This document shows, one piece after another, positions 4,632 to 15,430 of a DNA stretch of 64,000 nucleotides. A program made the translations under genes and the position numbers. This stretch comes from an uncultured Chryseobacterium sp. (GTDB lineage Bacteria; Bacteroidota; Bacteroidia; Flavobacteriales; Weeksellaceae), in assembly GCF_913777465.1 (NCBI RefSeq), contig NZ_CAJYRQ010000027.1; one strand, written 5' to 3'. How positions within the stretch are numbered: position 1 is the stretch's first letter; each line of letters starts with the position of its first letter. The notes under the pieces were generated by a model, which saw nothing but the letters and a program-made list of their open reading frames with translations, made no database searches and was not told where the DNA came from.

Positions 4632-5777
4632 TTAATCCAGAACGCTCCAACCCCTTTTCGGATTGTTGTTGTTGGATACTTCCTGCTCGTTGACGATGAT
4701 GTTTTCCTTTCTCTGGCCGATGTAATCCAGTTCGCTCAGTTTAGCAAAGATGGTTTCCAGGCTTTTCAGCATCTGCTGGATGTAGATAAACGGTTCACCG
4801 CAGTTGTGATGGTCATAATTGGTTTCAGCAACAATAGACAACTGGTTCAGCAGCGTGTGGGGAGCAATTTCACTCCATTCCAGACTGTAGTTCAGCATTT
4901 CTTCCAACTCTGCAGGAACCAGTACCTGCGTCGCATTGTACATGCGAAGCGCCAGTTTGGCAAACAGCTCAATCAGAAATACCGGTGGCTGATACGGGGT
5001 AATATTCCGGAACTGGAAATACATATCGCCGAAAGTATTGATCATCGTATTACACAGAAATTTAACGTTCTGGGCCAATGCCGTATTCTGGTTTTTATGG
5101 GAAGCTTTCTGAATGATTTTGAAAGCATATTGCTGCAGGTTCCCGACGGATTTTGCAAAGATATTGTAATAATCCAGCAGTGCCGGATGGCTCTGAATGG
5201 AAGTACACGGCGGGATGAAGTTGGAATCCACCTGTGCGATATTCCCTTTCAGGTCTACTTTTCCGATGATGAGGTAATTCCCTCCCGAGTAGCTGCTGTT
5301 CAATGAAGTTACCGGCAGCAGTTCCAGGTGGTGGTTGGACTGGGTATTCGGGTGGCGTGGCGGAAGCTCTTCCGGATCGATATCCCCAAACGGCACTTTA
5401 TCGAAAGGATTTACGGAAATCAGGATGTAATATTCTCCGTCGGCCTGTTCTTCATTCATGGATTTCGCCATTGATTTGACACTGATTCTCCTATCCACCA
5501 GCTCGATCCGGTAACCGGCCATGGTAACGGCACTGCATCGTTTGATCACGAGCTGTACGTCATTCGTTGCCGTGTTGTGGACATCGAAAATCGTCCGGTC
5601 GGTAAACTCGTTCGAAATAGGCAGAAGCCCGTAATTATAGTTTGTGATTCCCAATGAATTGGAATCCCTGATGGTATCGATTAAAAAATTATCCTGGTCA
5701 TTAAGATGTCTCTGGGAAACTTTCATCCCGTCAACCCAATTGATGGCAAAATGCTTAATAGGCTGTATCATATTCAA
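4632..5777 (-). CDS. tssK: Type VI secretion system (subtype iii) baseplate subunit TssK
   Basis: INWVDGMKVSQRHL N-terminus typical of TssK, and FIPPCTSIQSHPAL. Adjacent to tssN and tssG. Confidence 0.82.
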   Translation of the reverse strand: MNMIQPIKHFAINWVDGMKVSQRHLNDQDNFLIDTIRDSNSLGITNYNYGLLPISNEFTDRTIFDVHNTATNDVQLVIKRCSAVTMAGYRIELVDRRISVKSMAKSMNEEQADGEYYILISVNPFDKVPFGDIDPEELPPRHPNTQSNHHLELLPVTSLNSSYSGGNYLIIGKVDLKGNIAQVDSNFIPPCTSIQSHPALLDYYNIFAKSVGNLQQYAFKIIQKASHKNQNTALAQNVKFLCNTMINTFGDMYFQFRNITPYQPPVFLIELFAKLALRMYNATQVLVPAELEEMLNYSLEWSEIAPHTLLNQLSIVAETNYDHHNCGEPFIYIQQMLKSLETIFAKLSELDYIGQRKENIIVNEQEVSNNNNPKRGWSVLD

Positions 5778-6751: not shown

Positions 6752-7693
6752 TCACAGGAAAGTAGAGTATCCGAGCCTGTTTGCATTTCTTTCGTCATCT
6801 TCCAGCGCAAAAGAATATTCTTTTTTCTCGGTAATGAATTGTTCCTCCACTTCAACGCTTACCGGCAGGAAATAATCGTACATGGCCTGCAATACCTGCC
6901 GGAAAGGGCTGCCATCTATGTATTTCTTCATTTCCTGATAAGGAATCGGCCCGATATTTACCACCCAGTTCCGCTGGCCGTCCATATGTCTTCCGCTCGG
7001 AATATAAGTTACGCCCAGCCTTGAATTCCCCAGCAGCATGGAATTATCTTCCTTTTCAATCCGGTCGATCACATTTGGTGCGAAGGTAACATTTACGGGT
7101 ATCCGGAGGAAAGCGGTCATGCACCTTTCAAACCAGGCTTTATCACCACGGATCTGATGAAAAAACGGCAGGATATAGATAAAAATATAAGCATTCTGTA
7201 TATCAAGCTTACTGATCAGCGGCCATAATTCGCTGACGGTATCCAGCAGAGCACCGGTATCGCTGGAGATATCAAAATCAAATTCTTTCATCAAAGCACT
7301 GATCTCGGTAAAGAATATTTCCAGTTCAAAAGGCTTGAAGAACTTCCGCGCATCCTCCTCTACTCTTTTCTGTCTTCGGATTTCGCGGACCACCGTCTCC
7401 ACATTTTTACGGGAAGCACCTAAGGACGGAGGATGAAAAAGACCTTCCGGAAGATAATCGTAAATGCCTTCCCTGTAGGTTTCGATGGTATACACTTCTT
7501 CATCAAATCCCAGATAATCGCTTGAAATACTTTTGATGTCCTTCAGGTAAGCCCGGTCGTTGATCCCGATCCGGTCGATAAAAATATTGCTTACCGCCCT
7601 ATGGTATTTTAAAAGGTTCACGGCTACCGCTTCCGCCTTGAAATCGGTTTGCAGTTTATTGTAATGCATGTCTACAATATTATTCTCATACAT
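6752..7693 (-). CDS. tssG: T6SS-iii baseplate subunit TssG
   Basis: TDFKAEAVA, REGIYDYLPEGLFH, ARKFFKPFE, LGNSRLG and YDYFLP motifs characteristic of Bacteroidetes TssG. Confidence 0.82.
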   Translation of the reverse strand: MYENNIVDMHYNKLQTDFKAEAVAVNLLKYHRAVSNIFIDRIGINDRAYLKDIKSISSDYLGFDEEVYTIETYREGIYDYLPEGLFHPPSLGASRKNVETVVREIRRQKRVEEDARKFFKPFELEIFFTEISALMKEFDFDISSDTGALLDTVSELWPLISKLDIQNAYIFIYILPFFHQIRGDKAWFERCMTAFLRIPVNVTFAPNVIDRIEKEDNSMLLGNSRLGVTYIPSGRHMDGQRNWVVNIGPIPYQEMKKYIDGSPFRQVLQAMYDYFLPVSVEVEEQFITEKKEYSFALEDDERNANRLGYSTFL

Positions 7694-7877
7694 GGTCTGT
7701 GCTGTGATTTTGGCTTGTAAAAATAGTATATCTCAAATTATTGAAAAAATATTTCCCAATGAATTTTCTATTAAAAATAGTAAATAATTGTGAGCAAAGG
7801 AAGAAAAAAAGGAAAATAAGGCTAAGATTAAGGTTGAGGTAAAGTTTGGGTGTGTGAGAATCATTGATATCAACAGC

Positions 7878-7924
7878 TACCTTTACCTTTACCTTTACCT
7901 TTACCTTTACCTTTACCTTTACCT
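7878..7924. repeat. Hexanucleotide simple-sequence repeat (CTTTAC)x7
   Basis: Seven perfect CTTTAC copies at 7881-7922, plus partial flanks. An imperfect inverted partner aaggttgaggtaaag lies at 7831-7845. Confidence 0.95.
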
Positions 7925-7973
7925 CAGACTTAAATTAATATTTGATTAATTTTTCCCGCTGGTTTTCTCCCGA

Positions 7974-8006
7974 TTGATGGCAGCCTTAAAATTAACCGTA
8001 TCTTTG
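7974..8006 (+). promoter_or_regulatory. Bacteroidetes sigmaA-type promoter for the S1/P1 nuclease gene
   Basis: -7 box TATCTTTG (7999-8006) fits the TAnnTTTG consensus. TTG lies at 7974-7976. Confidence 0.55.
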
Positions 8007-8028
8007 CGCCCTGAAAATGTTATTTACA

Positions 8029-8820
8029 ATGAAAAGTATGTATTCTAAAATTCTGGTTCTGGCCTTCATGGCCTCTTCGCTGTATTCTTATGCGTGGGGA
8101 CTTACGGGACACCGGATTATTGCAGAAATTGCAGAGCATCACCTTTCCGGAAAGGCAAGAAGGGAGATCAAAAAAATGATGGGAAGGGAACGCCTTGCGT
8201 ATTGGGCCAACTGGCCGGATTTTATTAAATCCGACACCACCGGTGCCTGGAAACAGGCTTCAGCCTGGCATTACGTGAACATCGATCCGCAGACGGATTT
8301 CAGGGTGTTTGAAGAAAAACTGAAGGCACAGGCCGGCCCGAGTCTGTATACTCAGGCAAAAACCCTGTCCAGCCAGATCAAAGATCCGAAAACTTCGGAA
8401 AAAGACCGAAAGATCGCACTGATTTTCCTGATCCACATTATGGGCGACCTGGCTCAGCCGCTGCACGTAGGAAGAGCGGAAGATCTGGGCGGAAACAAGA
8501 TCAACGTGACCTATTTCGGGGAAAAAACCAACCTGCATTCGGTGTGGGACGGAAAGCTGGTGGACTCCCAGAAATACAGCTATACGGAATATGCCAATCT
8601 TCTGGACATTAAAACCAATGACGAAGTAAAGCAGATCCAGACCGGAACGCTGGAAGACTGGCTGTACGATTCCCATAAAATCGCCAACAAAATCTATGCA
8701 CAGACGCCGAATGATTCCAAACTGGCATACGACTATCAGTATAAATTCAACGATACGATGGAGAGACAGCTGCTGTACGGCGGTCTGAGACTGGCGAAAT
8801 GGCTGAACGATCTTTTTTAA
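8029..8820 (+). CDS. S1/P1 nuclease (secreted zinc nuclease)
   Basis: Signal peptide followed by WGLTGH, WPDFIK, WHYVN, HIMGDLAQPLH, DLGGN and NLHSVWD motifs. Confidence 0.92.
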   Translation: MKSMYSKILVLAFMASSLYSYAWGLTGHRIIAEIAEHHLSGKARREIKKMMGRERLAYWANWPDFIKSDTTGAWKQASAWHYVNIDPQTDFRVFEEKLKAQAGPSLYTQAKTLSSQIKDPKTSEKDRKIALIFLIHIMGDLAQPLHVGRAEDLGGNKINVTYFGEKTNLHSVWDGKLVDSQKYSYTEYANLLDIKTNDEVKQIQTGTLEDWLYDSHKIANKIYAQTPNDSKLAYDYQYKFNDTMERQLLYGGLRLAKWLNDLF

Positions 8821-8872
8821 GGTAAATGGTTCAATGGTGAATGGTGAATTTACTGTTCGTTAAAAGATATTA

Positions 8873-8899
8873 GGCGGGGCTTCGGTTCCGCTTTTTTTT
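8873..8899 (+). terminator. Intrinsic terminator
   Basis: ggcggggc-ttcg-gttccgc followed by a T-tract. Confidence 0.75.
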
Positions 8900-8989
8900 G
8901 TAGTGAATGGTCAAATGTCAATTTGATGTTGTTTAATCGGTAGGTAAAGGTTTAAAAATCGGTAACAAACGGTAATCAAAGGGAATTAA

Positions 8990-9160
8990 ATTCCACTCCT
9001 TTGGAGGGGTGGCGAAAATTCTGAAAGAATTTTTGACGGGGTGGTTTTTAAAAGGGTGAATTTTGCAAAGCAAGTGAATGGTCAATCTTGAATTGTTAAT
9101 TTTTCATGTGTACCTGACGAAAATTTACCATTCACCGGCAAAGCCGAATTTACCATTGAT
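8990..9160. repeat. Cluster of interspersed palindromic/short repeats (ccactcctttggaggggtgg..gacggggtgg; gtgaatggtca / taccattcacc)
   Basis: Imperfect hairpins and recurring tgaatgg/ccattca units in a 650-bp non-coding gap before rpoD. Confidence 0.45.
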
Positions 9161-9197
9161 CTGAAATTACCGGCTTAAACTGAATTTAAAGACCAAT

Positions 9198-9285
9198 GCC
9201 CTAGCCCGGATAGAAGCGGCTACCCCACAGCGGGGCCGGGATGCGGCGGCGCGAGGAGTAATAGCGGATAGCCGGATCAAGCTCC
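9198..9285 (+). ncRNA. Flavo-1-like structured RNA / repeat element (tentative)
   Basis: GC-rich 88-nt island GCCCTAGCCCGGATAGAAGCGG...TAGCGGATAGCCGGATCAAGCTCC. Its ends resemble the Flavo-1 motif as I recall it. Not verified by a covariance search. Confidence 0.35.
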
Positions 9286-9468
9286 TGGAAAAAAAAATCC
9301 TGCTGGTCTTTTCTGCGTAAAATCTGCGTTCTGTATCGTGAGAGGCATAATTTACAATTAATTTCTGAAAATAAGTTTAATTCAATAAAAATTTTCTGCA
9401 GCTACTGTAACCTTTTTGATGTTTCATACGTATAATATAATAGAAACTCTTTTTTGAGGATAAAATAG

Positions 9469-10335
9469 ATGAGACAATTAAAAATCACTAAGCAGGTAAC
9501 CAACAGGGAAACTGCTTCATTAGACAAGTATTTGCAGGAAATTGGTAAAGTGGAACTGATTACTGCGGACGAAGAGGTAGATCTGGCACAAAGGATCCGT
9601 GCAGGCGACAGGGCCGCACTGGAAAAACTCATTAAAGCCAACCTCCGTTTCGTAGTTTCCGTATCCAAGCAGTACCAAAATCAGGGTCTTTCTTTACCCG
9701 ATTTGATCAATGAAGGGAATTTAGGACTGATGAAGGCAGCAAAAAGGTATGATGAAACTAGAGGTTTCAAATTTATCTCTTACGCGGTTTGGTGGATCCG
9801 TCAGTCGATCTTACAGGCTTTGGCAGAACAGTCGAGGATTGTAAGGTTGCCGCTGAACAAAATCGGTTCCATCAACAAGATCAACAAAGCTTACGCGCAT
9901 CTTGAGCAGGAAAATGAAAGACCACCTTCCCCGGAAGAGCTGGCTGAAGTTCTCGATATGAGTGAAGAAGACATCAAGGAATCGATGAAAAACTCCGGAA
10001 GGCACCTGTCGATGGATGCACCTTTGGTAGAGGGTGAAGATTCCAATCTTTACGATGTACTGCGTTCAGGAGAATCTCCGAGCCCGGACAAAGACCTGAT
10101 GCTGGAATCGCTTCAGATCGAAATCGAAAGAGCTTTGAATACCCTGACGCCAAGAGAAGCGGATTTGGTACGTTTGTATTTCGGACTGAACGGGAAACAC
10201 CCGATGACGCTGGAAGAAATCGGTGAAACTTTCGACCTTACCAGAGAACGTGTCCGTCAGATCAAAGAAAAAGCGATCAAGAGACTGAAACACAACACCA
10301 GAAGTAAGATCCTGAAATCTTATTTAGGGAAGTAA
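9469..10335 (+). CDS. rpoD: Primary RNA polymerase sigma factor (Bacteroidetes RpoD/SigA, lacks region 1.1)
   Basis: [47 protein letters not shown] and [21 protein letters not shown] motifs. Confidence 0.96.
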
Positions 10336-10359
10336 TTTTTTAACGAAACATACATACGC

Positions 10360-10387
10360 GGAGCCTGATTTTCAGGCTCCTTTTTTT
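10360..10387 (+). terminator. Intrinsic terminator of rpoD
   Basis: ggagcctga-ttt-tcaggctcc followed by a T-tract. Confidence 0.88.
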
Positions 10388-10554
10388 ATTTTTACGGATG
10401 ATCGTTATTTATTTCACACATCAGGCACAGAGAGATTTTATTGGCCTGCGTATATTTTAGAACACAGGAGATTAAAAATCAGAGATTTTAATATCTAATA
10501 CGTATTTAAAGAAGGTTAAATAACTTTAATTATTTTGCCGTTACATTTTTGTTT

Positions 10555-10989
10555 ATGAATGAACTTTACTTTTTTATCGGAGGATTTATCCTGATTTTTA
10601 CTTTCGCTAATGCTTTCGTTTATTTTTTAAATAAAAGTAATCAGAATCGTTTTTTAAATTTTATCAAAGATAGAAAATACGATATCATCAGAAATGTGGA
10701 AACTGAGATTGAAGCGTATTCGAAATTAGGAGCAAAAATAAGTTATCGAAAAGGTAATATTGTTTTTTTGGAGGATGAAATCTTTATTATTTCTTTCAAT
10801 AAACCGATTATCCAACTTACCAAAGGCCAGGAAAACTTCCCGGGTGTTTTCTGTAAATTTTATTATGACTTTAAAGCAAAAGTAAAACAAAGACTTGAAA
10901 TAAAAAACTCCAATGGCAGTATTAAAGTCAATCTTAATTTCAAAAATACCGGTTTTGATTTAGAAAATCATCTAAAGAAACATATTTGA
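10555..10989 (+). CDS. Hypothetical single-pass membrane protein
   Basis: N-terminal hydrophobic helix followed by a basic soluble domain. AT-rich; no family recognised. Confidence 0.6.
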   Translation: MNELYFFIGGFILIFTFANAFVYFLNKSNQNRFLNFIKDRKYDIIRNVETEIEAYSKLGAKISYRKGNIVFLEDEIFIISFNKPIIQLTKGQENFPGVFCKFYYDFKAKVKQRLEIKNSNGSIKVNLNFKNTGFDLENHLKKHI

Positions 10990-11103
10990 CAACGGTTTGT
11001 TTTGGTTCCTTTTTCTACAACATAAACTTAACAGATAATTAACCCGAACGAAATCCCGTTCATCATATAATCCGATAGCTTCGCATCCATTAAATTATTA
11101 ATT

Positions 11104-12351
11104 ATGATTCAGAAAAAATTTCCTGGATGGATGCTTTTATGTGCCCTGACCGGCGTCGGATGCCAAAACAATGCCCTGCCTTCGACAGAAGAAGAGCAGT
11201 CTTTAAAAACCATTACCGGCAGAGCATCGCTGGATGCGGAAGTCAATGTAAATGCTTATGTGGATACGGGTACTTATATCAATTCCGGTTTCAGTTTTTT
11301 AAATCCGTCACAGATCAATAAGAACCGCCAGGCCATCGGCGGAAGTGCTTATACCGAAGTCTACGGTTTCAACATTCCTGAAGAAAACCGGGTAAGGGGC
11401 ATCCGCTGGAATACCGATGATGAAACGACACCGCTCTGGAGACCTCAGGGAATTGCCGGATTCAGCAAAGACGGCGTGCGCTATCTTCTGGTGAGCTGGT
11501 ACGCCAAAGATGAAGCGGCTTTCAAAGGCTCGCGCATTACCCTGATTGACATCAGTCCAAGTTCAAGCACATATCTTACCTACCGCCATATCCTTCTGGT
11601 ACAGCCTGATGTTCCGGCAGGCTCGACGGGTTATTCACAGTACGGCACTTACGCCCCACTCAATGTGCATGCCGGTGGAATGGCTTATTTTAAGGGAAAA
11701 CTCTATATCAGCAGTACGAATCTGGGAGTGCGTATATTCGATCTGAATAAAATCATCGAAGTAAGCACCGGCGATGCAACCAATGACAAATGCGGTAAGG
11801 ATGCGAACGGTAATTTATTCGCTTTCACTTACCGGTATATCCTGCCACAGACAGGATATCAGAAAATCAACAATGCCAATCCTTTCTCTACGATTCAGGT
11901 GAATGCCGAAGGTACGCAGTTCTGGACCGGACAGTATTATTCTGGCAGCGCAGATGCTTCCATCGTTCCCAAAGTCTTCGGATTTCCTGTTGATGCAAAC
12001 GGGATTATCCAGAATACCGGCATCGTATCGGTTGCCCCGAAGAACAGCCTCTTCATCGACAACCATGCCCACGGGATACAGGGCGTATTCAGAAAAGGCA
12101 ACCGGACCTGGCTTTCCTGCACCGGATCTCCGAGCAATTCGTACGGATCCAATGCAAGACTGGCCCGTTACACCGACGGCGCTGACGATACCGTGCGTTT
12201 CCGATGGCCTTACGGAGCCGAATCGCTTTACTATGAATCCCAATACAATTATCTTTGGAGCCTCACCGAATTTGAGCCTAATGCCGGCGCACAAAACGGA
12301 AGCCAGGTGAACCGGTGTATCTTTGCCGTTGATTTTTCCAAATATGAATAG
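11104..12351 (+). CDS. Secreted lipoprotein of unknown function (probable beta-propeller-like fold)
   Basis: Lipobox LTGVGC, 415-aa open frame, beta-rich repeated segments, and motifs WRPQGI, LVSWY, HAGG, WPYGAESL and LWSLTEF. Confidence 0.75.
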   Translation: MIQKKFPGWMLLCALTGVGCQNNALPSTEEEQSLKTITGRASLDAEVNVNAYVDTGTYINSGFSFLNPSQINKNRQAIGGSAYTEVYGFNIPEENRVRGIRWNTDDETTPLWRPQGIAGFSKDGVRYLLVSWYAKDEAAFKGSRITLIDISPSSSTYLTYRHILLVQPDVPAGSTGYSQYGTYAPLNVHAGGMAYFKGKLYISSTNLGVRIFDLNKIIEVSTGDATNDKCGKDANGNLFAFTYRYILPQTGYQKINNANPFSTIQVNAEGTQFWTGQYYSGSADASIVPKVFGFPVDANGIIQNTGIVSVAPKNSLFIDNHAHGIQGVFRKGNRTWLSCTGSPSNSYGSNARLARYTDGADDTVRFRWPYGAESLYYESQYNYLWSLTEFEPNAGAQNGSQVNRCIFAVDFSKYE

Positions 12352-12362
12352 AAATTAAGCAG

Positions 12363-12391
12363 GCTGGAAGCAGGATGCCGGAAGCTGGAAG
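12363..12391 (+). repeat. GCTGGAAG-family dispersed repeat (copy 1 of at least 5)
   Basis: gctggaagcaggatgccggaagctggaag. Similar copies at 16552-16580, 39559-39587, 39788-39816 and 50154-50182. Confidence 0.7.
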
Positions 12392-12493
12392 TTTTTTGTC
12401 AGTCTATATTGATGTAAGCCGAAGAAAAGACCAGTCTACCCTTTTGAAAGAAAATTTCCGTTATCCTAAAGAGAAATAACCACAAGTAAATCT

Positions 12494-12584
12494 GCCCTGG
12501 AAAGGCTTGATTATCATAACCCCGGGTTTTACCCGGGGCTTAAACGAAAGCAGAAGGCCGTAAAAAGCACTGAAGGGGCGCAAC
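12494..12584. repeat. REP/REPIN-like element (gccctggaaaggc ... ccccgggt-ttt-acccgggg ... gcactgaaggggc)
   Basis: Near-perfect hairpin aaccccgggt/acccggggct at ~12518-12540, flanked by two GC(C/A)CTG.A.GG.C units. Confidence 0.55.
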
Positions 12585-12798
12585 CGGTTTAGAGATAAAC
12601 GGAAAACAATAAATACCAAATATTTATCAAGTCCTTTTATGACTGAATTATTTAAATTACCGAAATAAATTAAACCATCAAATTCACGTTAAATAAGAAG
12701 TTCCACTTATTATAAAAATAACGTAACCTAAACTTCTTCAATAAGGAAATTTCAAACATTTAAAATTTTAAGCTATCTTCAGGGCTTAATAAGGAAAA

Positions 12799-14022
12799 AT
12801 GCATAATAATTCAGAAGAAAACAAAATAGCAAAAGATAAAAATATTCTGGTTGTTTTAAATAACCGTCAGGAAATCAATCAGGAACTGCAGTACCTGATC
12901 GGTCATTTCTGCGGAACTGTAGTTGATGACTTAAATGCGGATTTTAAGAATAAAAAAATATACATCTGCGGGGATTTAAATAACCTTACTGAAAGCACCC
13001 ATTTTCTGCATGTTATTAAAGAGTTGTCGGTAAATTACGAAAATATTAATGAAGATCAATACGAGATTCTAAATCTCGGAACGGTCCCTGTGATCATCAG
13101 TAATGCAGGCGTTTATTTCCGGAAACTTTTTCAGGAAGAGAATATTTTTGATAAGGTAAAATCCGAACATCAATTTCAGGAGCTTACCGAATCCAACAAA
13201 AAAGCAAAAGCATTAAGGAAAGGGATCTACCTGAGTAAAGTTACCAATAAGCCTGGTAAAAACGGTGAAGAAGAACTGCATTTCAACCTTCTGCGATGTT
13301 CCAGCAATCTAACGGGTCCAACGGATAATTTCAGGGAAACGGACCACAAAATCATTTCTCTGCTTAACCGATGTGTTGAAGAAGCTTTTGAATATAAAAC
13401 CGATCTGAATCATGCCTTGGTGCAGATCTATGAAAATAAAAAGAAAACTACGGATACCGAAAAGGAAGTCAAAGCCAAAATCAAAGCCCATTCCGACAAA
13501 ACGAAGGATATGCCGAGAGAAGGACTGATTGCCTTCTGTACCTTTTATGAGAATACCCATTCCGGACATTTAAACCCGTCACAAACAGACCGCTTTGATG
13601 TATGTTACAAGCAGACCAGTGCATTAACCAGGCTTCATTTCAGACTTAAGAAAACCGTAGAAGACAAATCTTTGGAAAAAGAATTTACCGTGACTTTATA
13701 TCCGGATTCCGCATTTATCATTCCGCTATCCACCAACCGGCTGTATACGCATGAGATCCGGCCTTCTATTTTGGGTGTTGAGCAGATTCCGGTAAGAATG
13801 GGATATGTGGTCCGATGCTCAAATCTGGAAGCGATTTATAAAAACAACCAGACCTACATTAAAGAAAATGATGAATACGTTATGCTGGAAGAAATGAATT
13901 CTGAAATGCATGCTGAACTGAAAAATTCATATTATGAAGAAAATATGACTGAGCATATGGTGGAATATAAGAAAACACATTTCAGTATGAATTCCGGTGA
14001 TTACGAAAAACCAATGTTGTAA
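12799..14022 (+). CDS. AlkB-like 2OG-Fe(II) dioxygenase with an extra N-terminal domain
   Basis: HxD motif (AHSDKTKD), distal His (LYTHEIRP) and RxxxxxR (RMGYVVR). Paralogous to the next ORF. Confidence 0.68.
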   Translation: MHNNSEENKIAKDKNILVVLNNRQEINQELQYLIGHFCGTVVDDLNADFKNKKIYICGDLNNLTESTHFLHVIKELSVNYENINEDQYEILNLGTVPVIISNAGVYFRKLFQEENIFDKVKSEHQFQELTESNKKAKALRKGIYLSKVTNKPGKNGEEELHFNLLRCSSNLTGPTDNFRETDHKIISLLNRCVEEAFEYKTDLNHALVQIYENKKKTTDTEKEVKAKIKAHSDKTKDMPREGLIAFCTFYENTHSGHLNPSQTDRFDVCYKQTSALTRLHFRLKKTVEDKSLEKEFTVTLYPDSAFIIPLSTNRLYTHEIRPSILGVEQIPVRMGYVVRCSNLEAIYKNNQTYIKENDEYVMLEEMNSEMHAELKNSYYEENMTEHMVEYKKTHFSMNSGDYEKPML

Positions 14023-14822
14023 TGAACGGTTCCGGATTTTATCAATTAATTTTACCTTCAGAACAGAGCTTGTTCGAAAAACTGACGAACGCTGTTGATT
14101 TTGAAATAACAGGAAAAGGCAGGCTGGGCAATCATCTGGTAAAAGAAAACAACGGAATAATCCCGCTTGTAAGAACAACAACGCGATTCCAAAATCGTGC
14201 AGGCTTATTTTGTAATATCCACCTCCAAATTATCAAAAAGATAAATGCGTTTATTTTATCTGAAAACCTGGAGGTGCCTGAACAGGATTTTAACAATGCC
14301 CTGGCCGAAGTGTACGACTCTTCTTATACTAAAATGGGTTACCATTCCGACCAGGCTCTGGATCTGGAGGATTATTCTTTTATCGCGCTGTTTTCCTGTT
14401 ATGAAAATCCTGATATGTTGCAGGAAAGCCAGAAAAGGAAGATGATCATAAAAAATAAGATGACCGGAGAGGAATCTGAAATCGTATTGCACAACGATTC
14501 CGTAATTCTGTTTTCTCTAGAAACCAATAAAAAATTCCAGCATAAGATCATTTCCGATCTGAAGCAGAATTCCAAAGACCTGATAGAGACCCGCTGGCAT
14601 GGAATAACATTCAGGACGTCCAAAACCTTCATCCACTTTGAAGATAACCAACCTTATTTTCAGACCGGAGAATTATTGACTTTGGCTGATGAAGAAAGAG
14701 AAAAAGAGTTCTTTCAGCTAAGGGGCCAGGAAAACAGGTCGCCGGATTTTATTTATCCTGATGTCTTTTATACGATAAGCCCTGCCGATCTTTTGATTCC
14801 AGGAAACAAAAATACCCTTTAA
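14022..14822 (+). CDS. AlkB-like 2OG-Fe(II) dioxygenase
   Basis: FNNALAEVY, MGYHSDQALDL (HxD), FQHKII (His) and ITFRTSK motifs. TAATG overlap with the upstream gene. Confidence 0.75.
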   Translation: MNGSGFYQLILPSEQSLFEKLTNAVDFEITGKGRLGNHLVKENNGIIPLVRTTTRFQNRAGLFCNIHLQIIKKINAFILSENLEVPEQDFNNALAEVYDSSYTKMGYHSDQALDLEDYSFIALFSCYENPDMLQESQKRKMIIKNKMTGEESEIVLHNDSVILFSLETNKKFQHKIISDLKQNSKDLIETRWHGITFRTSKTFIHFEDNQPYFQTGELLTLADEEREKEFFQLRGQENRSPDFIYPDVFYTISPADLLIPGNKNTL

Positions 14823-14827
14823 AGTAT

Positions 14828-15430
14828 ATGACCATGAAAAAAACATTATTCATCACTCCTCTGCTTATCCTGTTATTTTCATGCGGGAAAAACAAATCTG
14901 AAAATAAGCCTTTGATCGAAAATGCAATTGATAATACGGATTCGTCGCTGAAAGGTTCATTTGAGGGCAGCCGTTACGATGATAATATGATCGATAAAAT
15001 TTATTCTGAATTAATTAAAAACGACAACAGATTATCTGCTCTTGACGATAAAATTCTAAAAATCCACGAAGTGGAATCAAAGGTCATTCACCCATATGAA
15101 AATATATTCATAAAATCTGATGGTTATTACCGTGATGCTAAGATTCAGACCAACAGCATAACAGATTCGACTCTGAAACATCAAATTGAAGATGAGATTA
15201 AATTAAGCGTCGAAAAATATGATTTAAAAGTAAAAAACATCAAGGCTTTAATTTCGCGGATTTCTAAAAATACGGAGACCATCAATAATTTATATACGGC
15301 ATTCAAAATCAGGAAAACCCTGCCGGAAATTGAAAAATACCAGAATGCCCACCCGTTGAAAACAGACAGCCTGGAGCATTTCATCGGTAAGCAGAACCAA
15401 TTGCTGAATGCGCTGAAAAACATAAAATAA
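14828..15430 (+). CDS. Hypothetical lipoprotein (coiled-coil rich)
   Basis: Lipobox LLFSC after MKKTLFITPLLI, with a helical heptad pattern. Confidence 0.75.
   Translation: MTMKKTLFITPLLILLFSCGKNKSENKPLIENAIDNTDSSLKGSFEGSRYDDNMIDKIYSELIKNDNRLSALDDKILKIHEVESKVIHPYENIFIKSDGYYRDAKIQTNSITDSTLKHQIEDEIKLSVEKYDLKVKNIKALISRISKNTETINNLYTAFKIRKTLPEIEKYQNAHPLKTDSLEHFIGKQNQLLNALKNIK

What the first reader, a model, noticed from the sequence alone, without database searches (positions are those of the whole stretch)
12799..14822. Tandem, translationally coupled pair of paralogous AlkB-like 2OG-Fe(II) dioxygenases: candidate uncharacterised two-component oxidative modification system
Seen in sequence: two genes overlap at TAATG (14020-14024) and align along the double-stranded beta-helix core: DLNHALVQIY/DFNNALAEVY, AHSDKTKD/YHSDQALD, IAFCTFYE/IALFSCYE, TLYPDSAFIIPLSTNRLYTHEI/VLHNDSVILFSLETNKKFQHKI, RMGYVVRCS/GITFRTS. 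Both keep HxD..H and the 2OG-binding Arg, so neither looks like a decayed copy. The first adds a ~120-aa N-terminal domain. Established: AlkB/TET-JBP-type dioxygenases oxidise nucleic-acid bases or small molecules. Recall, unverified: similar sequences occur in actinomycetes and giant viruses, which would mean a patchy, mobile distribution. Inference: a two-step or heterodimeric base-modifying, repair or anti-phage module. It sits in an AT-rich accessory islet between rpoD and yggS.
Basis: partly seen in the sequence, partly recalled or inferred. Interest (0 to 1): 0.7.

Follow-up and report, generated by a model that had tools for sequence, protein, structure and literature searches.

The report
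Obligate pair of AlkB-like dioxygenases
Two overlapping genes encode anciently diverged AlkB-type iron/2-oxoglutarate oxygenases that always occur together in bacteria and a giant virus and are fused into one protein in protists, so they probably form an unstudied two-part enzyme, most likely for nucleic-acid base repair.

Summary
Gene A (12799-14022, 407 aa) and gene B (14022-14822, 266 aa) overlap at TAATG. They are old paralogues (21% identity; hhalign probability 96%). Both fold like AlkB/ALKBH2/ALKBH3.

The iron ligands (HxD...H) and a 2OG-binding Arg are kept in about 98% of 228 A homologues and in all 140 B homologues.

The two genes behave as one unit:
- A and B occur in exactly the same 18 of 151 same-genus genomes and the same 3 of 301 phylum genomes, always adjacent.
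- The adjacent pair recurs in Actinomycetota and in one giant-virus MAG.
- Chromera, Ochromonas and similar eukaryote-like sequences carry A-B fusions. One sequence carries a B-A fusion.
- The A tree and the B tree agree.

In Chryseobacterium the pair is a presence/absence insertion between the main sigma factor gene and a lipoprotein gene. The host genome already has two canonical AlkBs.

In at least five different genomic contexts a short endonuclease V gene follows B directly. Identities suggest the three genes moved together between bacterial classes.

Best reading: a horizontally mobile, two-subunit AlkB-type dioxygenase, probably acting on damaged or modified nucleic-acid bases. The substrate is not shown. 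An anti-phage role is not supported. I found no paper or solved structure for the family. It is a new variant of a known kind.

The parts
12799..14022 (+). Gene A: 407-aa divergent AlkB-like Fe(II)/2OG dioxygenase with an extra N-terminal domain
   Evidence: ORF. PF13532 scores 17.9 bits, below the cut-off of 31.2. AF2 model mean pLDDT 69, pTM 0.77. Foldseek best matches are ALKBH2, AlkB and ALKBH3, E = 2e-6. Homologues across Bacteroidota classes are 60-84% identical.
12799..13173 (+). N-terminal alpha/beta domain of A (residues 1-125), fold family unknown
   Evidence: Block-mean pLDDT mostly 81-92 (60 and 70 in two blocks). No Pfam match and no significant PDB sequence match (best E = 0.25). 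An exhaustive profile search found 365 clusters. Of the 150 listed, the full-length hits are of A-like size, and all ten of the longer hits examined are A-like proteins or A/B fusions. None carries another catalytic domain.
13174..14022 (+). B-like module of A: DSBH core with H231-S-D233, H318, R333 and R339, plus a C-terminal helix and an invariant tail FSMNxGDYxxP
   Evidence: hhalign aligns A139-405 with B33-260. Site conservation was measured in 228 homologues. Invariant columns are listed. The tail (377-407) has low pLDDT in the monomer model.
14020..14024 (+). TAATG stop/start overlap of A and B
   Evidence: Read directly from the sequence.
14022..14822 (+). Gene B: 266-aa AlkB-like Fe(II)/2OG dioxygenase with H108-S-D110, H174 and R198; W192 replaces the first Arg
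   Evidence: PF13532 scores 38.3 bits, above the cut-off. AF2 mean pLDDT 92.5. Foldseek best matches are ALKBH2 (E = 4e-9, TM up to 0.71 normalised to the target), ALKBH3 and FTO. The catalytic sites are invariant in 140 homologues.
12754..12781 (+). Conserved upstream motif AAACATTTAAAATTTTAAGCTATCTTCA, 18-45 nt before the A start codon; candidate promoter or leader element (inferred)
   Evidence: Conserved in the window and in four other Chryseobacterium loci, among them loci with different sequence further upstream. A related TA(T/C)CTTCA element appears in several others. No Rfam match in 12300-12850. Function not tested.

Best explanation
A and B are the two subunits of one enzyme: a heteromeric AlkB-clade Fe(II)/2-oxoglutarate dioxygenase (a single fused polypeptide in eukaryotes) with two intact active sites.

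A is a B-like catalytic module that has gained a roughly 125-aa N-terminal domain of unknown role, perhaps substrate recruitment. Both subunits carry a family-specific C-terminal helix and tail that canonical AlkBs lack. I infer that this extension mediates assembly.

The most likely chemistry is the AlkB reaction: Fe(IV)-oxo hydroxylation of an N-alkyl or exocyclic adduct on a nucleic-acid base, followed by release of the aldehyde. The target would be a lesion or mark that the genome's two canonical AlkBs do not handle. The enzyme would work upstream of, or alongside, endonuclease V-type processing of damaged purines.

The two-gene cassette (three genes with endonuclease V in some lineages) spreads horizontally. 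In Chryseobacterium it sits in a variable spot between the primary sigma factor gene and a lipoprotein gene.

What is shown: paralogy, AlkB-like fold, intact catalytic residues, strict co-occurrence and adjacency, fusions, co-inheritance, patchy distribution and recurrent endonuclease V linkage.

What is inferred: physical heterodimer (about 0.8), nucleic-acid substrate (about 0.5), and the specific lesion (unknown).
For: 1. Fold. Both models match AlkB, ALKBH2 and ALKBH3 best. B also matches FTO. B passes the PF13532 cut-off.

2. Both active sites are under selection. The HxD...H and Arg positions are kept in 224-225 of 228 A homologues and 140 of 140 B homologues, including eukaryotic, viral and actinomycete members.

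3. Co-occurrence. A and B are found in exactly the same 18 of 151 same-genus genomes and the same 3 of 301 phylum genomes, with adjacent coordinates. They are adjacent in 27 of 27 Bacteroidota loci that have downstream DNA. They are also adjacent in Filimonas, Dokdonia, Xanthocytophaga, Chitinophaga, Flavobacterium and Arcicella, in Embleya and Nonomuraea, and convergently in a giant-virus MAG.

4. Fusions. Seven A-then-B fusions and one B-then-A fusion contain full-length copies of both modules. One is from Chromera velia and one cluster is from Ochromonas sp. CCMP1393.

5. Co-inheritance. The A and B trees have the same major groups and the same unexpected placement of Chryseobacterium with Xanthocytophaga and Filimonas.

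6. Not redundant with AlkB. The genome has two canonical AlkBs scoring 123 and 111 bits.

7. Link to nucleic acids.
- A short endonuclease V (PF04493) starts within 25 nt of B, or overlaps it by 4 nt. This is seen in Cellulophaga, Mesonia aestuariivivens, the Formosa/Winogradskyella/Mesonia algae group, Flavobacterium sp. 90 and Arcicella, with different flanking genes.
- It is the only endonuclease V in four such genomes.
- Arcicella and Flavobacterium are more alike in A (70%), B (70%) and endonuclease V (58%) than Flavobacterium is to other Flavobacteriaceae. This suggests transfer of the trio as a unit.
- One NCLDV contig has A near a weak MPG-like glycosylase match and a topoisomerase II gene.
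Against: No assay, no expression data and no complex model exist.

Both proteins are acidic (median pI about 5.8), whereas to my knowledge ALKBH2 and ALKBH3 are basic. Neither has a recognisable nucleic-acid-binding domain.

Most loci, including this window, lack endonuclease V next to the pair. In Chryseobacterium endonuclease V is a core, unlinked gene present in 132 of 151 genomes. Its linkage elsewhere could therefore partly reflect insertion-site preference.

The MPG-like match is below the Pfam cut-off (19 against 27 bits) and lies 4 kb away.

Five of the eight A-first eukaryote-type sequences examined (seven fusions plus the truncated P0305) start with a hydrophobic segment. This could mean membrane anchoring, which would be unusual for a repair enzyme, or a signal peptide of a bipartite plastid-targeting sequence.

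A scores below the Pfam threshold. At the position where E. coli AlkB has Asn120, A has Gln and B has Glu. The AlkB residue is from memory and the alignment is approximate.
Confidence: 0.5

Rival explanations
1. The pair is a two-subunit or two-step oxygenase acting on a small molecule, lipid or protein rather than on nucleic acid. Examples would be hydroxylation or demethylation of a metabolite or of a protein side chain. The AlkB-like fold would reflect ancestry only, as for ALKBH4 and ALKBH7, which to my knowledge are thought not to act on nucleic acids.
For: Both proteins are acidic. No nucleic-acid-binding domain was found. Several eukaryote-type fusions have N-terminal hydrophobic segments. 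Most loci have no repair-gene neighbours. In Chitinophaga the downstream genes are TauD-like, PLP-decarboxylase and IucA/IucC siderophore genes. ALKBH7 appears among the fold matches of A.
Against: The best fold matches are DNA/RNA-acting AlkB, ALKBH2, ALKBH3 and FTO. Endonuclease V is linked in an operon-like way in at least five contexts, and the trio appears to move as a unit. The pair is present in giant-virus genomes, where I saw no metabolic partner genes. No metabolic neighbour is conserved across lineages.
Confidence: 0.3
2. The pair is a conflict system. It would be either an anti-phage module or an eraser of DNA methyl marks or base modifications, used against restriction-modification systems or by viruses.
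For: The distribution is patchy and horizontally mobile. The pair is present in giant viruses. In marine Flavobacteriaceae it lies beside SUKH-type immunity genes. In Arcicella it is followed by an HTH gene and a C5 DNA methyltransferase gene.
Against: There is no relevant PADLOC match: one weak, unrelated match of B to a Cas2 model, E = 0.011. There is no match in 50,697 phage records. No nuclease, ATPase or abortive-infection effector is conserved with the pair. The neighbours differ between lineages. Fusion proteins in free-living protists fit a housekeeping enzyme better. The adjacency to restriction-modification genes is seen in single genomes only.
Confidence: 0.08
3. The two genes are independent, partly redundant AlkB paralogues that are neighbours only because of a tandem duplication.
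For: They are paralogous and adjacent.
Against: They share only 21-24% identity, so the duplication predates the split of the bacterial, viral and eukaryotic members. Both are nonetheless retained together everywhere sampled, with no intact singletons in 451 genomes. They are fused in both orders. Their trees agree.
Confidence: 0.03

Closest known systems
E. coli AlkB and human ALKBH2/ALKBH3 (Fe(II)/2OG oxidative DNA/RNA dealkylases; Pfam PF13532)
   Same: Same DSBH fold; these are the best Foldseek matches for both proteins. HxD...H iron triad and distal Arg are present. B passes the Pfam cut-off.
   Different: To my knowledge the known enzymes work as single-chain proteins of about 200 aa. 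Here two anciently diverged paralogues are obligately linked or fused. Both carry a roughly 50-aa C-terminal helix-plus-tail extension, and A has an extra 125-aa N-terminal domain. A fails the Pfam cut-off. There is no sequence-level PDB match. Both proteins are acidic. The host already has two canonical AlkBs.
FTO (AlkB-family RNA demethylase with an added C-terminal domain)
   Same: FTO is among the best fold matches for B. It is an AlkB core elaborated with an extra domain that, to my knowledge, is needed for activity.
   Different: The FTO extension is a helical C-terminal domain within one chain. There is no second catalytic DSBH and no sequence similarity beyond the core.
Tpa1 / Ofd1 / OGFOD1 (2OG oxygenases with two DSBH domains in one protein; from my own knowledge)
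   Same: Two DSBH modules act as one unit, which is a precedent for the fused A-B proteins.
   Different: Those enzymes belong to the prolyl-hydroxylase clade, and to my knowledge their second DSBH lacks the iron ligands. Here both modules keep complete catalytic sets and belong to the AlkB clade.
Endonuclease V (Nfi; PF04493), as the associated third gene
   Same: The short endonuclease V next to the pair in some genomes matches PF04493 above the cut-off. By my reading of the alignment against remembered Nfi motifs, it keeps DTYY, YEPGxFYKRE, VDG and GIAK segments where Nfi has its catalytic residues.
   Different: It is only about 168 aa. It is absent from this window. In Chryseobacterium the orthologue is a core gene elsewhere in the genome.

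Membership tests
AlkB family / 2OG-FeII_Oxy_2 (PF13532) | Score above the Pfam gathering threshold (31.2 bits) | tested here: inconclusive
   B scores 38.3 bits and passes. A scores 17.9 bits and fails as a single sequence. A is nonetheless linked to B by hhalign (96%) and to AlkB by fold.
AlkB family / 2OG-FeII_Oxy_2 (PF13532) | Double-stranded beta-helix fold closest to AlkB/ALKBH enzymes | tested here: met
   Foldseek against the PDB: for A, ALKBH2 and AlkB at E = 2e-6 to 1e-5; for B, ALKBH2 at E = 4e-9 with TM up to 0.71 normalised to the target. The A model is only moderately confident (pLDDT 69).
AlkB family / 2OG-FeII_Oxy_2 (PF13532) | HxD...H facial triad for Fe(II) | tested here: met
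   A: H231, D233 and H318 kept in 224-225 of 228 homologues. B: H108, D110 and H174 kept in 140 of 140.
AlkB family / 2OG-FeII_Oxy_2 (PF13532) | Arg pair (RxxxxxR) binding the 2OG C5 carboxylate | tested here: inconclusive
   A keeps both (R333 and R339). B keeps only the second (R198) and has an invariant W192 at the first position.
AlkB family / 2OG-FeII_Oxy_2 (PF13532) | Oxidative dealkylation of 1-methyladenine/3-methylcytosine in DNA or RNA | not testable with these tools
   This needs enzyme assays or complementation of an alkB mutant.
TET/JBP base-modifying dioxygenases | Fold and sequence closest to TET/JBP | tested here: not met
   No TET/JBP entry appears among the 50 best PDB matches of either protein. 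All are AlkB clade or prolyl hydroxylases. There is no Pfam TET/JBP match.
Known anti-phage defence systems (PADLOC-DB 2.0) | Match to a defence-system protein model | tested here: not met
   A has no match. B has only a weak, unrelated match to Cas2_IIIa at E = 0.011.
Obligate heteromeric enzyme (operational definition) | Strict co-occurrence, adjacency and gene fusion of the two components | tested here: met
   Physical interaction itself was not tested.

The most novel reading that the evidence does not exclude
The A/B pair defines a distinct enzyme type: an obligate two-active-site AlkB-class dioxygenase, heterodimeric in bacteria and giant viruses and fused in protists. It would carry out a reaction that single-chain AlkBs cannot. 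One possibility is two successive oxidations on one lesion. Another is coordinated action on a bulky or exocyclic purine adduct whose product is then handed to endonuclease V. That would be an undescribed nucleic-acid repair or de-modification pathway shared across bacteria, eukaryotes (possibly in organelles) and giant viruses.
Probability: 0.3. Interest if true: 0.8.

Novelty: new variant of a known kind. Interest (0 to 1): 0.6.

Why it matters
To my knowledge, AlkB-family enzymes are studied as single-chain DNA/RNA demethylases, for example in alkylation repair and m6A erasure. This is a subfamily of several hundred sequence clusters in which two diverged catalytic modules are obligately paired or fused. 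It has its own extra domain and C-terminal extension. It spans Bacteroidota, Actinomycetota, protists and giant viruses. I found no paper and no structure for it.

If the enzyme is heteromeric and acts on nucleic acid, it adds a new architecture and probably a new substrate class to direct-reversal repair or to nucleic-acid demethylation. The case is also directly testable: two small soluble bacterial proteins, clear catalytic residues to mutate separately, and a natural fused version to use as a control.

Tried and rejected
- Sequence searches of A, of B, of the B profile and of the A N-domain profile against the PDB found nothing meaningful.
- NCBIfam gave no match.
- PHROGs gave only a weak 'alkylated DNA repair' match for B, E = 0.003.
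- PADLOC gave nothing relevant.
- Rfam found nothing in the 447-nt upstream spacer.
- The sigma-70 promoter and terminator scan was not informative for a Bacteroidota genome.
- BFVD fold search found only generic giant-virus AlkB-like proteins at 17% identity or less, and no full-length A-like protein from a cultured virus.
- The 161-aa cupin-like ORF next to A in NCLDV locus L038 is not a detectable B homologue (hhalign probability 8%).
- The Dokdonia 163-aa ORF downstream of B is not an endonuclease V.
- I tested whether the short endonuclease V tracks the pair within Chryseobacterium. It does not: it is present in 132 of 151 genomes and is unlinked.
- The downstream lipoprotein and FAD-monooxygenase genes are not part of the unit. 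They are present next to the sigma factor gene in genomes that lack A and B.
- Six literature searches found no description of this pair.
Full report
**Observation.** The window holds two same-strand ORFs at exactly the reported coordinates: A at 12799-14022 (407 aa) and B at 14022-14822 (266 aa). The stop of A and the start of B share one base in TAATG at 14020-14024.

BLASTP of A against B gives 21% identity over 207 residues, E = 1e-6. With 35-sequence alignments of each family, hhalign gives 96% probability, E = 1.9e-9. It aligns A139-405 with B33-260, which is nearly the whole of B, including a C-terminal helix and a conserved tail. So A is a B-like module with about 125 extra N-terminal residues.

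Pfam places B in PF13532 (AlkB-like 2OG-FeII_Oxy_2) at 38.3 bits, above the cut-off. A scores 17.9 bits, below it. NCBIfam has no model for either.

**Structure.** The AlphaFold2 model of B is confident (pLDDT 92.5). The model of A is moderate (pLDDT 69, pTM 0.77). Its N-terminal alpha/beta domain is mostly well predicted and its last 30 residues are poorly predicted.

Foldseek against the PDB returns ALKBH2, E. coli AlkB and ALKBH3 as the best matches for both proteins. FTO also matches B and ALKBH7 also matches A. No TET/JBP enzyme appears. At sequence level there is no solved relative.

- In A, H231, D233, H318, R333 and R339 are each kept in 224-225 of 228 sequences.
- In B, H108, D110, H174 and R198 are each kept in 140 of 140.
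- B has an invariant W192 where A has its first Arg.

Neither gene is a decayed copy.

**The two genes are one unit.**
- *Co-occurrence.* A six-frame search of 151 genomes of the same genus found A in 18 and B in the same 18. A search of 301 genomes spread over the phylum found each in the same 3. The two matches had adjacent coordinates every time. No genome had one gene without any trace of the other. One genome, G409, has a broken A next to an intact B.
- *Adjacency.* In 27 of 27 Bacteroidota loci with downstream DNA, B follows A directly, while the other neighbours change outside Chryseobacterium. The same holds in Filimonas, Dokdonia, Xanthocytophaga, Chitinophaga, Flavobacterium and Arcicella.
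- *Other lineages.* tblastn found A homologues at 43-45% identity in Embleya and Nonomuraea, with B immediately downstream. It found a 48% homologue in a giant-virus MAG (G+C 24%) with B convergent and adjacent.
- *Fusions.* An exhaustive profile search with the N-domain of A found 365 sequence clusters at E ≤ 0.001. The long hits are A-then-B fusions (701-1106 aa) that contain full-length copies of both modules. One is a B-then-A fusion. One fusion is Chromera velia Cvel_12286. Another cluster comes from Ochromonas sp. CCMP1393 transcriptomes.
- *Congruent trees.* Separate maximum-likelihood trees of the A parts and the B parts share the same groups: eukaryotic fusions with the actinomycetes nested among them (99-100% SH-aLRT), Bacteroidota, and NCLDV-like sequences. 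Both trees also place Chryseobacterium with Xanthocytophaga and Filimonas rather than with the other Flavobacteriales. The pair has therefore been inherited and transferred together.

**Genomic setting here.** The gene upstream at 9469-10335 is the primary sigma factor. It is 99.7-100% identical across the genus in all but one frameshifted locus. In six Chryseobacterium genomes that lack A and B, this gene is followed directly, or after a small ORF, by the homologue of the 200-aa lipoprotein gene (14828-15430). The FAD monooxygenase gene follows in several of them.

A and B are therefore a presence/absence insertion at this spot, together with the variable orf146 and the 415-aa lipoprotein gene in some species. 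Every A/B-positive Chryseobacterium carries the pair at the same place. About 12% of sampled species in the genus and about 1% in the phylum carry it.

The pair's G+C (0.37 and 0.39) is a little below the window mean of 0.42. In the actinomycetes the pair is 5-10 points below its flanks. No integrase or transposase flanks it. It is absent from the phage collection. The only matches in the plasmid collection are three multi-megabase actinomycete replicons of 3.1-11.9 Mb.

**What it does.** The genome has two canonical AlkB genes elsewhere, scoring 123 and 111 bits, so this is not the ordinary AlkB function.

The best clue to the substrate is a recurrent third gene. In several lineages a roughly 168-aa endonuclease V (PF04493, above the cut-off) starts 4-25 nt after B, or overlaps it by 4 nt. 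These lineages are Cellulophaga, Mesonia aestuariivivens, the Formosa/Winogradskyella/Mesonia algae group, Flavobacterium sp. 90 and Arcicella.
- The flanking genes differ between these five contexts.
- It is the only endonuclease V in the four genomes I checked.
- Arcicella (Cytophagia) and Flavobacterium sp. 90 are more similar in A (70%), B (70%) and endonuclease V (58%) than Flavobacterium is to other Flavobacteriaceae. This suggests the three genes moved together.
- An NCLDV contig with A also carries topoisomerase II and a weak MPG-like glycosylase match.

These observations point to damaged or modified purines in nucleic acid, but they are not proof. In Chryseobacterium the same endonuclease V is a core, unlinked gene present in 132 of 151 genomes. 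Both A and B are acidic (pI about 5.8). Neither has a known nucleic-acid-binding domain. Five of the eight A-first eukaryote-type sequences begin with a hydrophobic segment. That could be a membrane anchor, or the signal peptide of a bipartite plastid-targeting sequence.

**Verdict.** I put about 0.9 on A and B being a single functional unit. I put about 0.8 on a physical heteromer and about 0.5 on a nucleic-acid substrate. A small-molecule or protein substrate gets about 0.3. A defence or counter-defence role gets under 0.1: there is no relevant PADLOC match and no conserved effector. Independent redundant paralogues are effectively excluded.

**Novelty.** Six full-text searches found no description of this pair. 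Public records, where they carry a name, call B 'AlkB' or a 2OG-Fe(II) oxygenase, and usually call A 'hypothetical protein'.

Earlier notes of this scan, which I read only after my own analysis, describe the same family in other genomes and reach the same conclusions. They are AI notes, not independent evidence.

This is a new variant of a known kind. The chemistry and fold are AlkB-like. The obligate two-module architecture, the extra N-domain and the C-terminal extension are undescribed.

**Limits.** No complex prediction was made. The trees are quick searches with SH-aLRT support only. The model of A is of moderate confidence. The N-domain has no identified fold relatives.

Noticed in passing
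window 10549-12351: The space between the sigma factor gene and the A/B pair is itself variable. orf146 (G+C 0.27, membrane-like) and the 415-aa lipoprotein gene are present in only some Chryseobacterium species. This spot downstream of the primary sigma factor gene looks like a small insertion hotspot.
   Followed up: partly
window 12520-12539: There is a perfect 7-bp inverted repeat, CCCCGGG-TTTTA-CCCGGGG, in the 447-nt spacer upstream of A. No T-run follows it on the + strand. It has no Rfam match and no assigned role.
   Followed up: no
L018-L024, L026 (Formosa, Winogradskyella, Mesonia algae): In the five of these loci that I compared with L018 by blastn (L019, L020, L022, L023, L024), from three named genera, nucleotide identity is 81-90% over 8-12 kb around the A/B/endonuclease V trio. 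The shared stretch includes two SUKH-1 (SMI1/KNR4) immunity-type genes, DUF1963 and DUF2262. This suggests a recently exchanged island or taxonomic mislabelling.
   Followed up: partly
L041 (Nonomuraea gerenzanensis), about 7000-7080: The A reading frame loses its conserved C-terminal tail and runs on into the start of B. The copy appears damaged by a deletion or frameshift at the A/B junction. The Embleya copy is intact.
   Followed up: no
G409:C1:2633230-2635249 and G384:C1:4746327-4748312 (same genus): In G409, A is interrupted by stop codons while B is intact. In G384 (75% complete) both genes are split. These are signs of occasional decay of the pair, or of assembly errors.
   Followed up: no
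L038 (NCLDV contig, 194 kb) 4692-5177 and 11122-11784: This giant-virus contig has A without a detectable adjacent B. A 161-aa cupin-like ORF lies one gene upstream, and a weak methylpurine-DNA-glycosylase-like ORF (19 bits, below the cut-off) lies 4 kb downstream.
   Followed up: partly
L051 (Arcicella aquatica) 7759-10523: Directly after the A/B/endonuclease V trio come an HTH gene, a C5 DNA methyltransferase gene (PF00145) and an unannotated 354-aa gene. This may be a restriction-modification system.
   Followed up: no
own genome, contigs C16:23609-24139 and C74:12829-13359 (L034, L035): There are two canonical AlkB genes (PF13532 at 123 and 111 bits) elsewhere in the same genome. With B, that makes three proteins that pass the AlkB-like model.
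   Followed up: partly
L049, L052 (Chitinophaga and a related metagenome contig), downstream of B: A TauD-like gene, a PLP-dependent decarboxylase gene and an IucA/IucC siderophore synthetase gene follow the pair on the same strand in two related contigs. This is probably an unrelated siderophore cluster.
   Followed up: no
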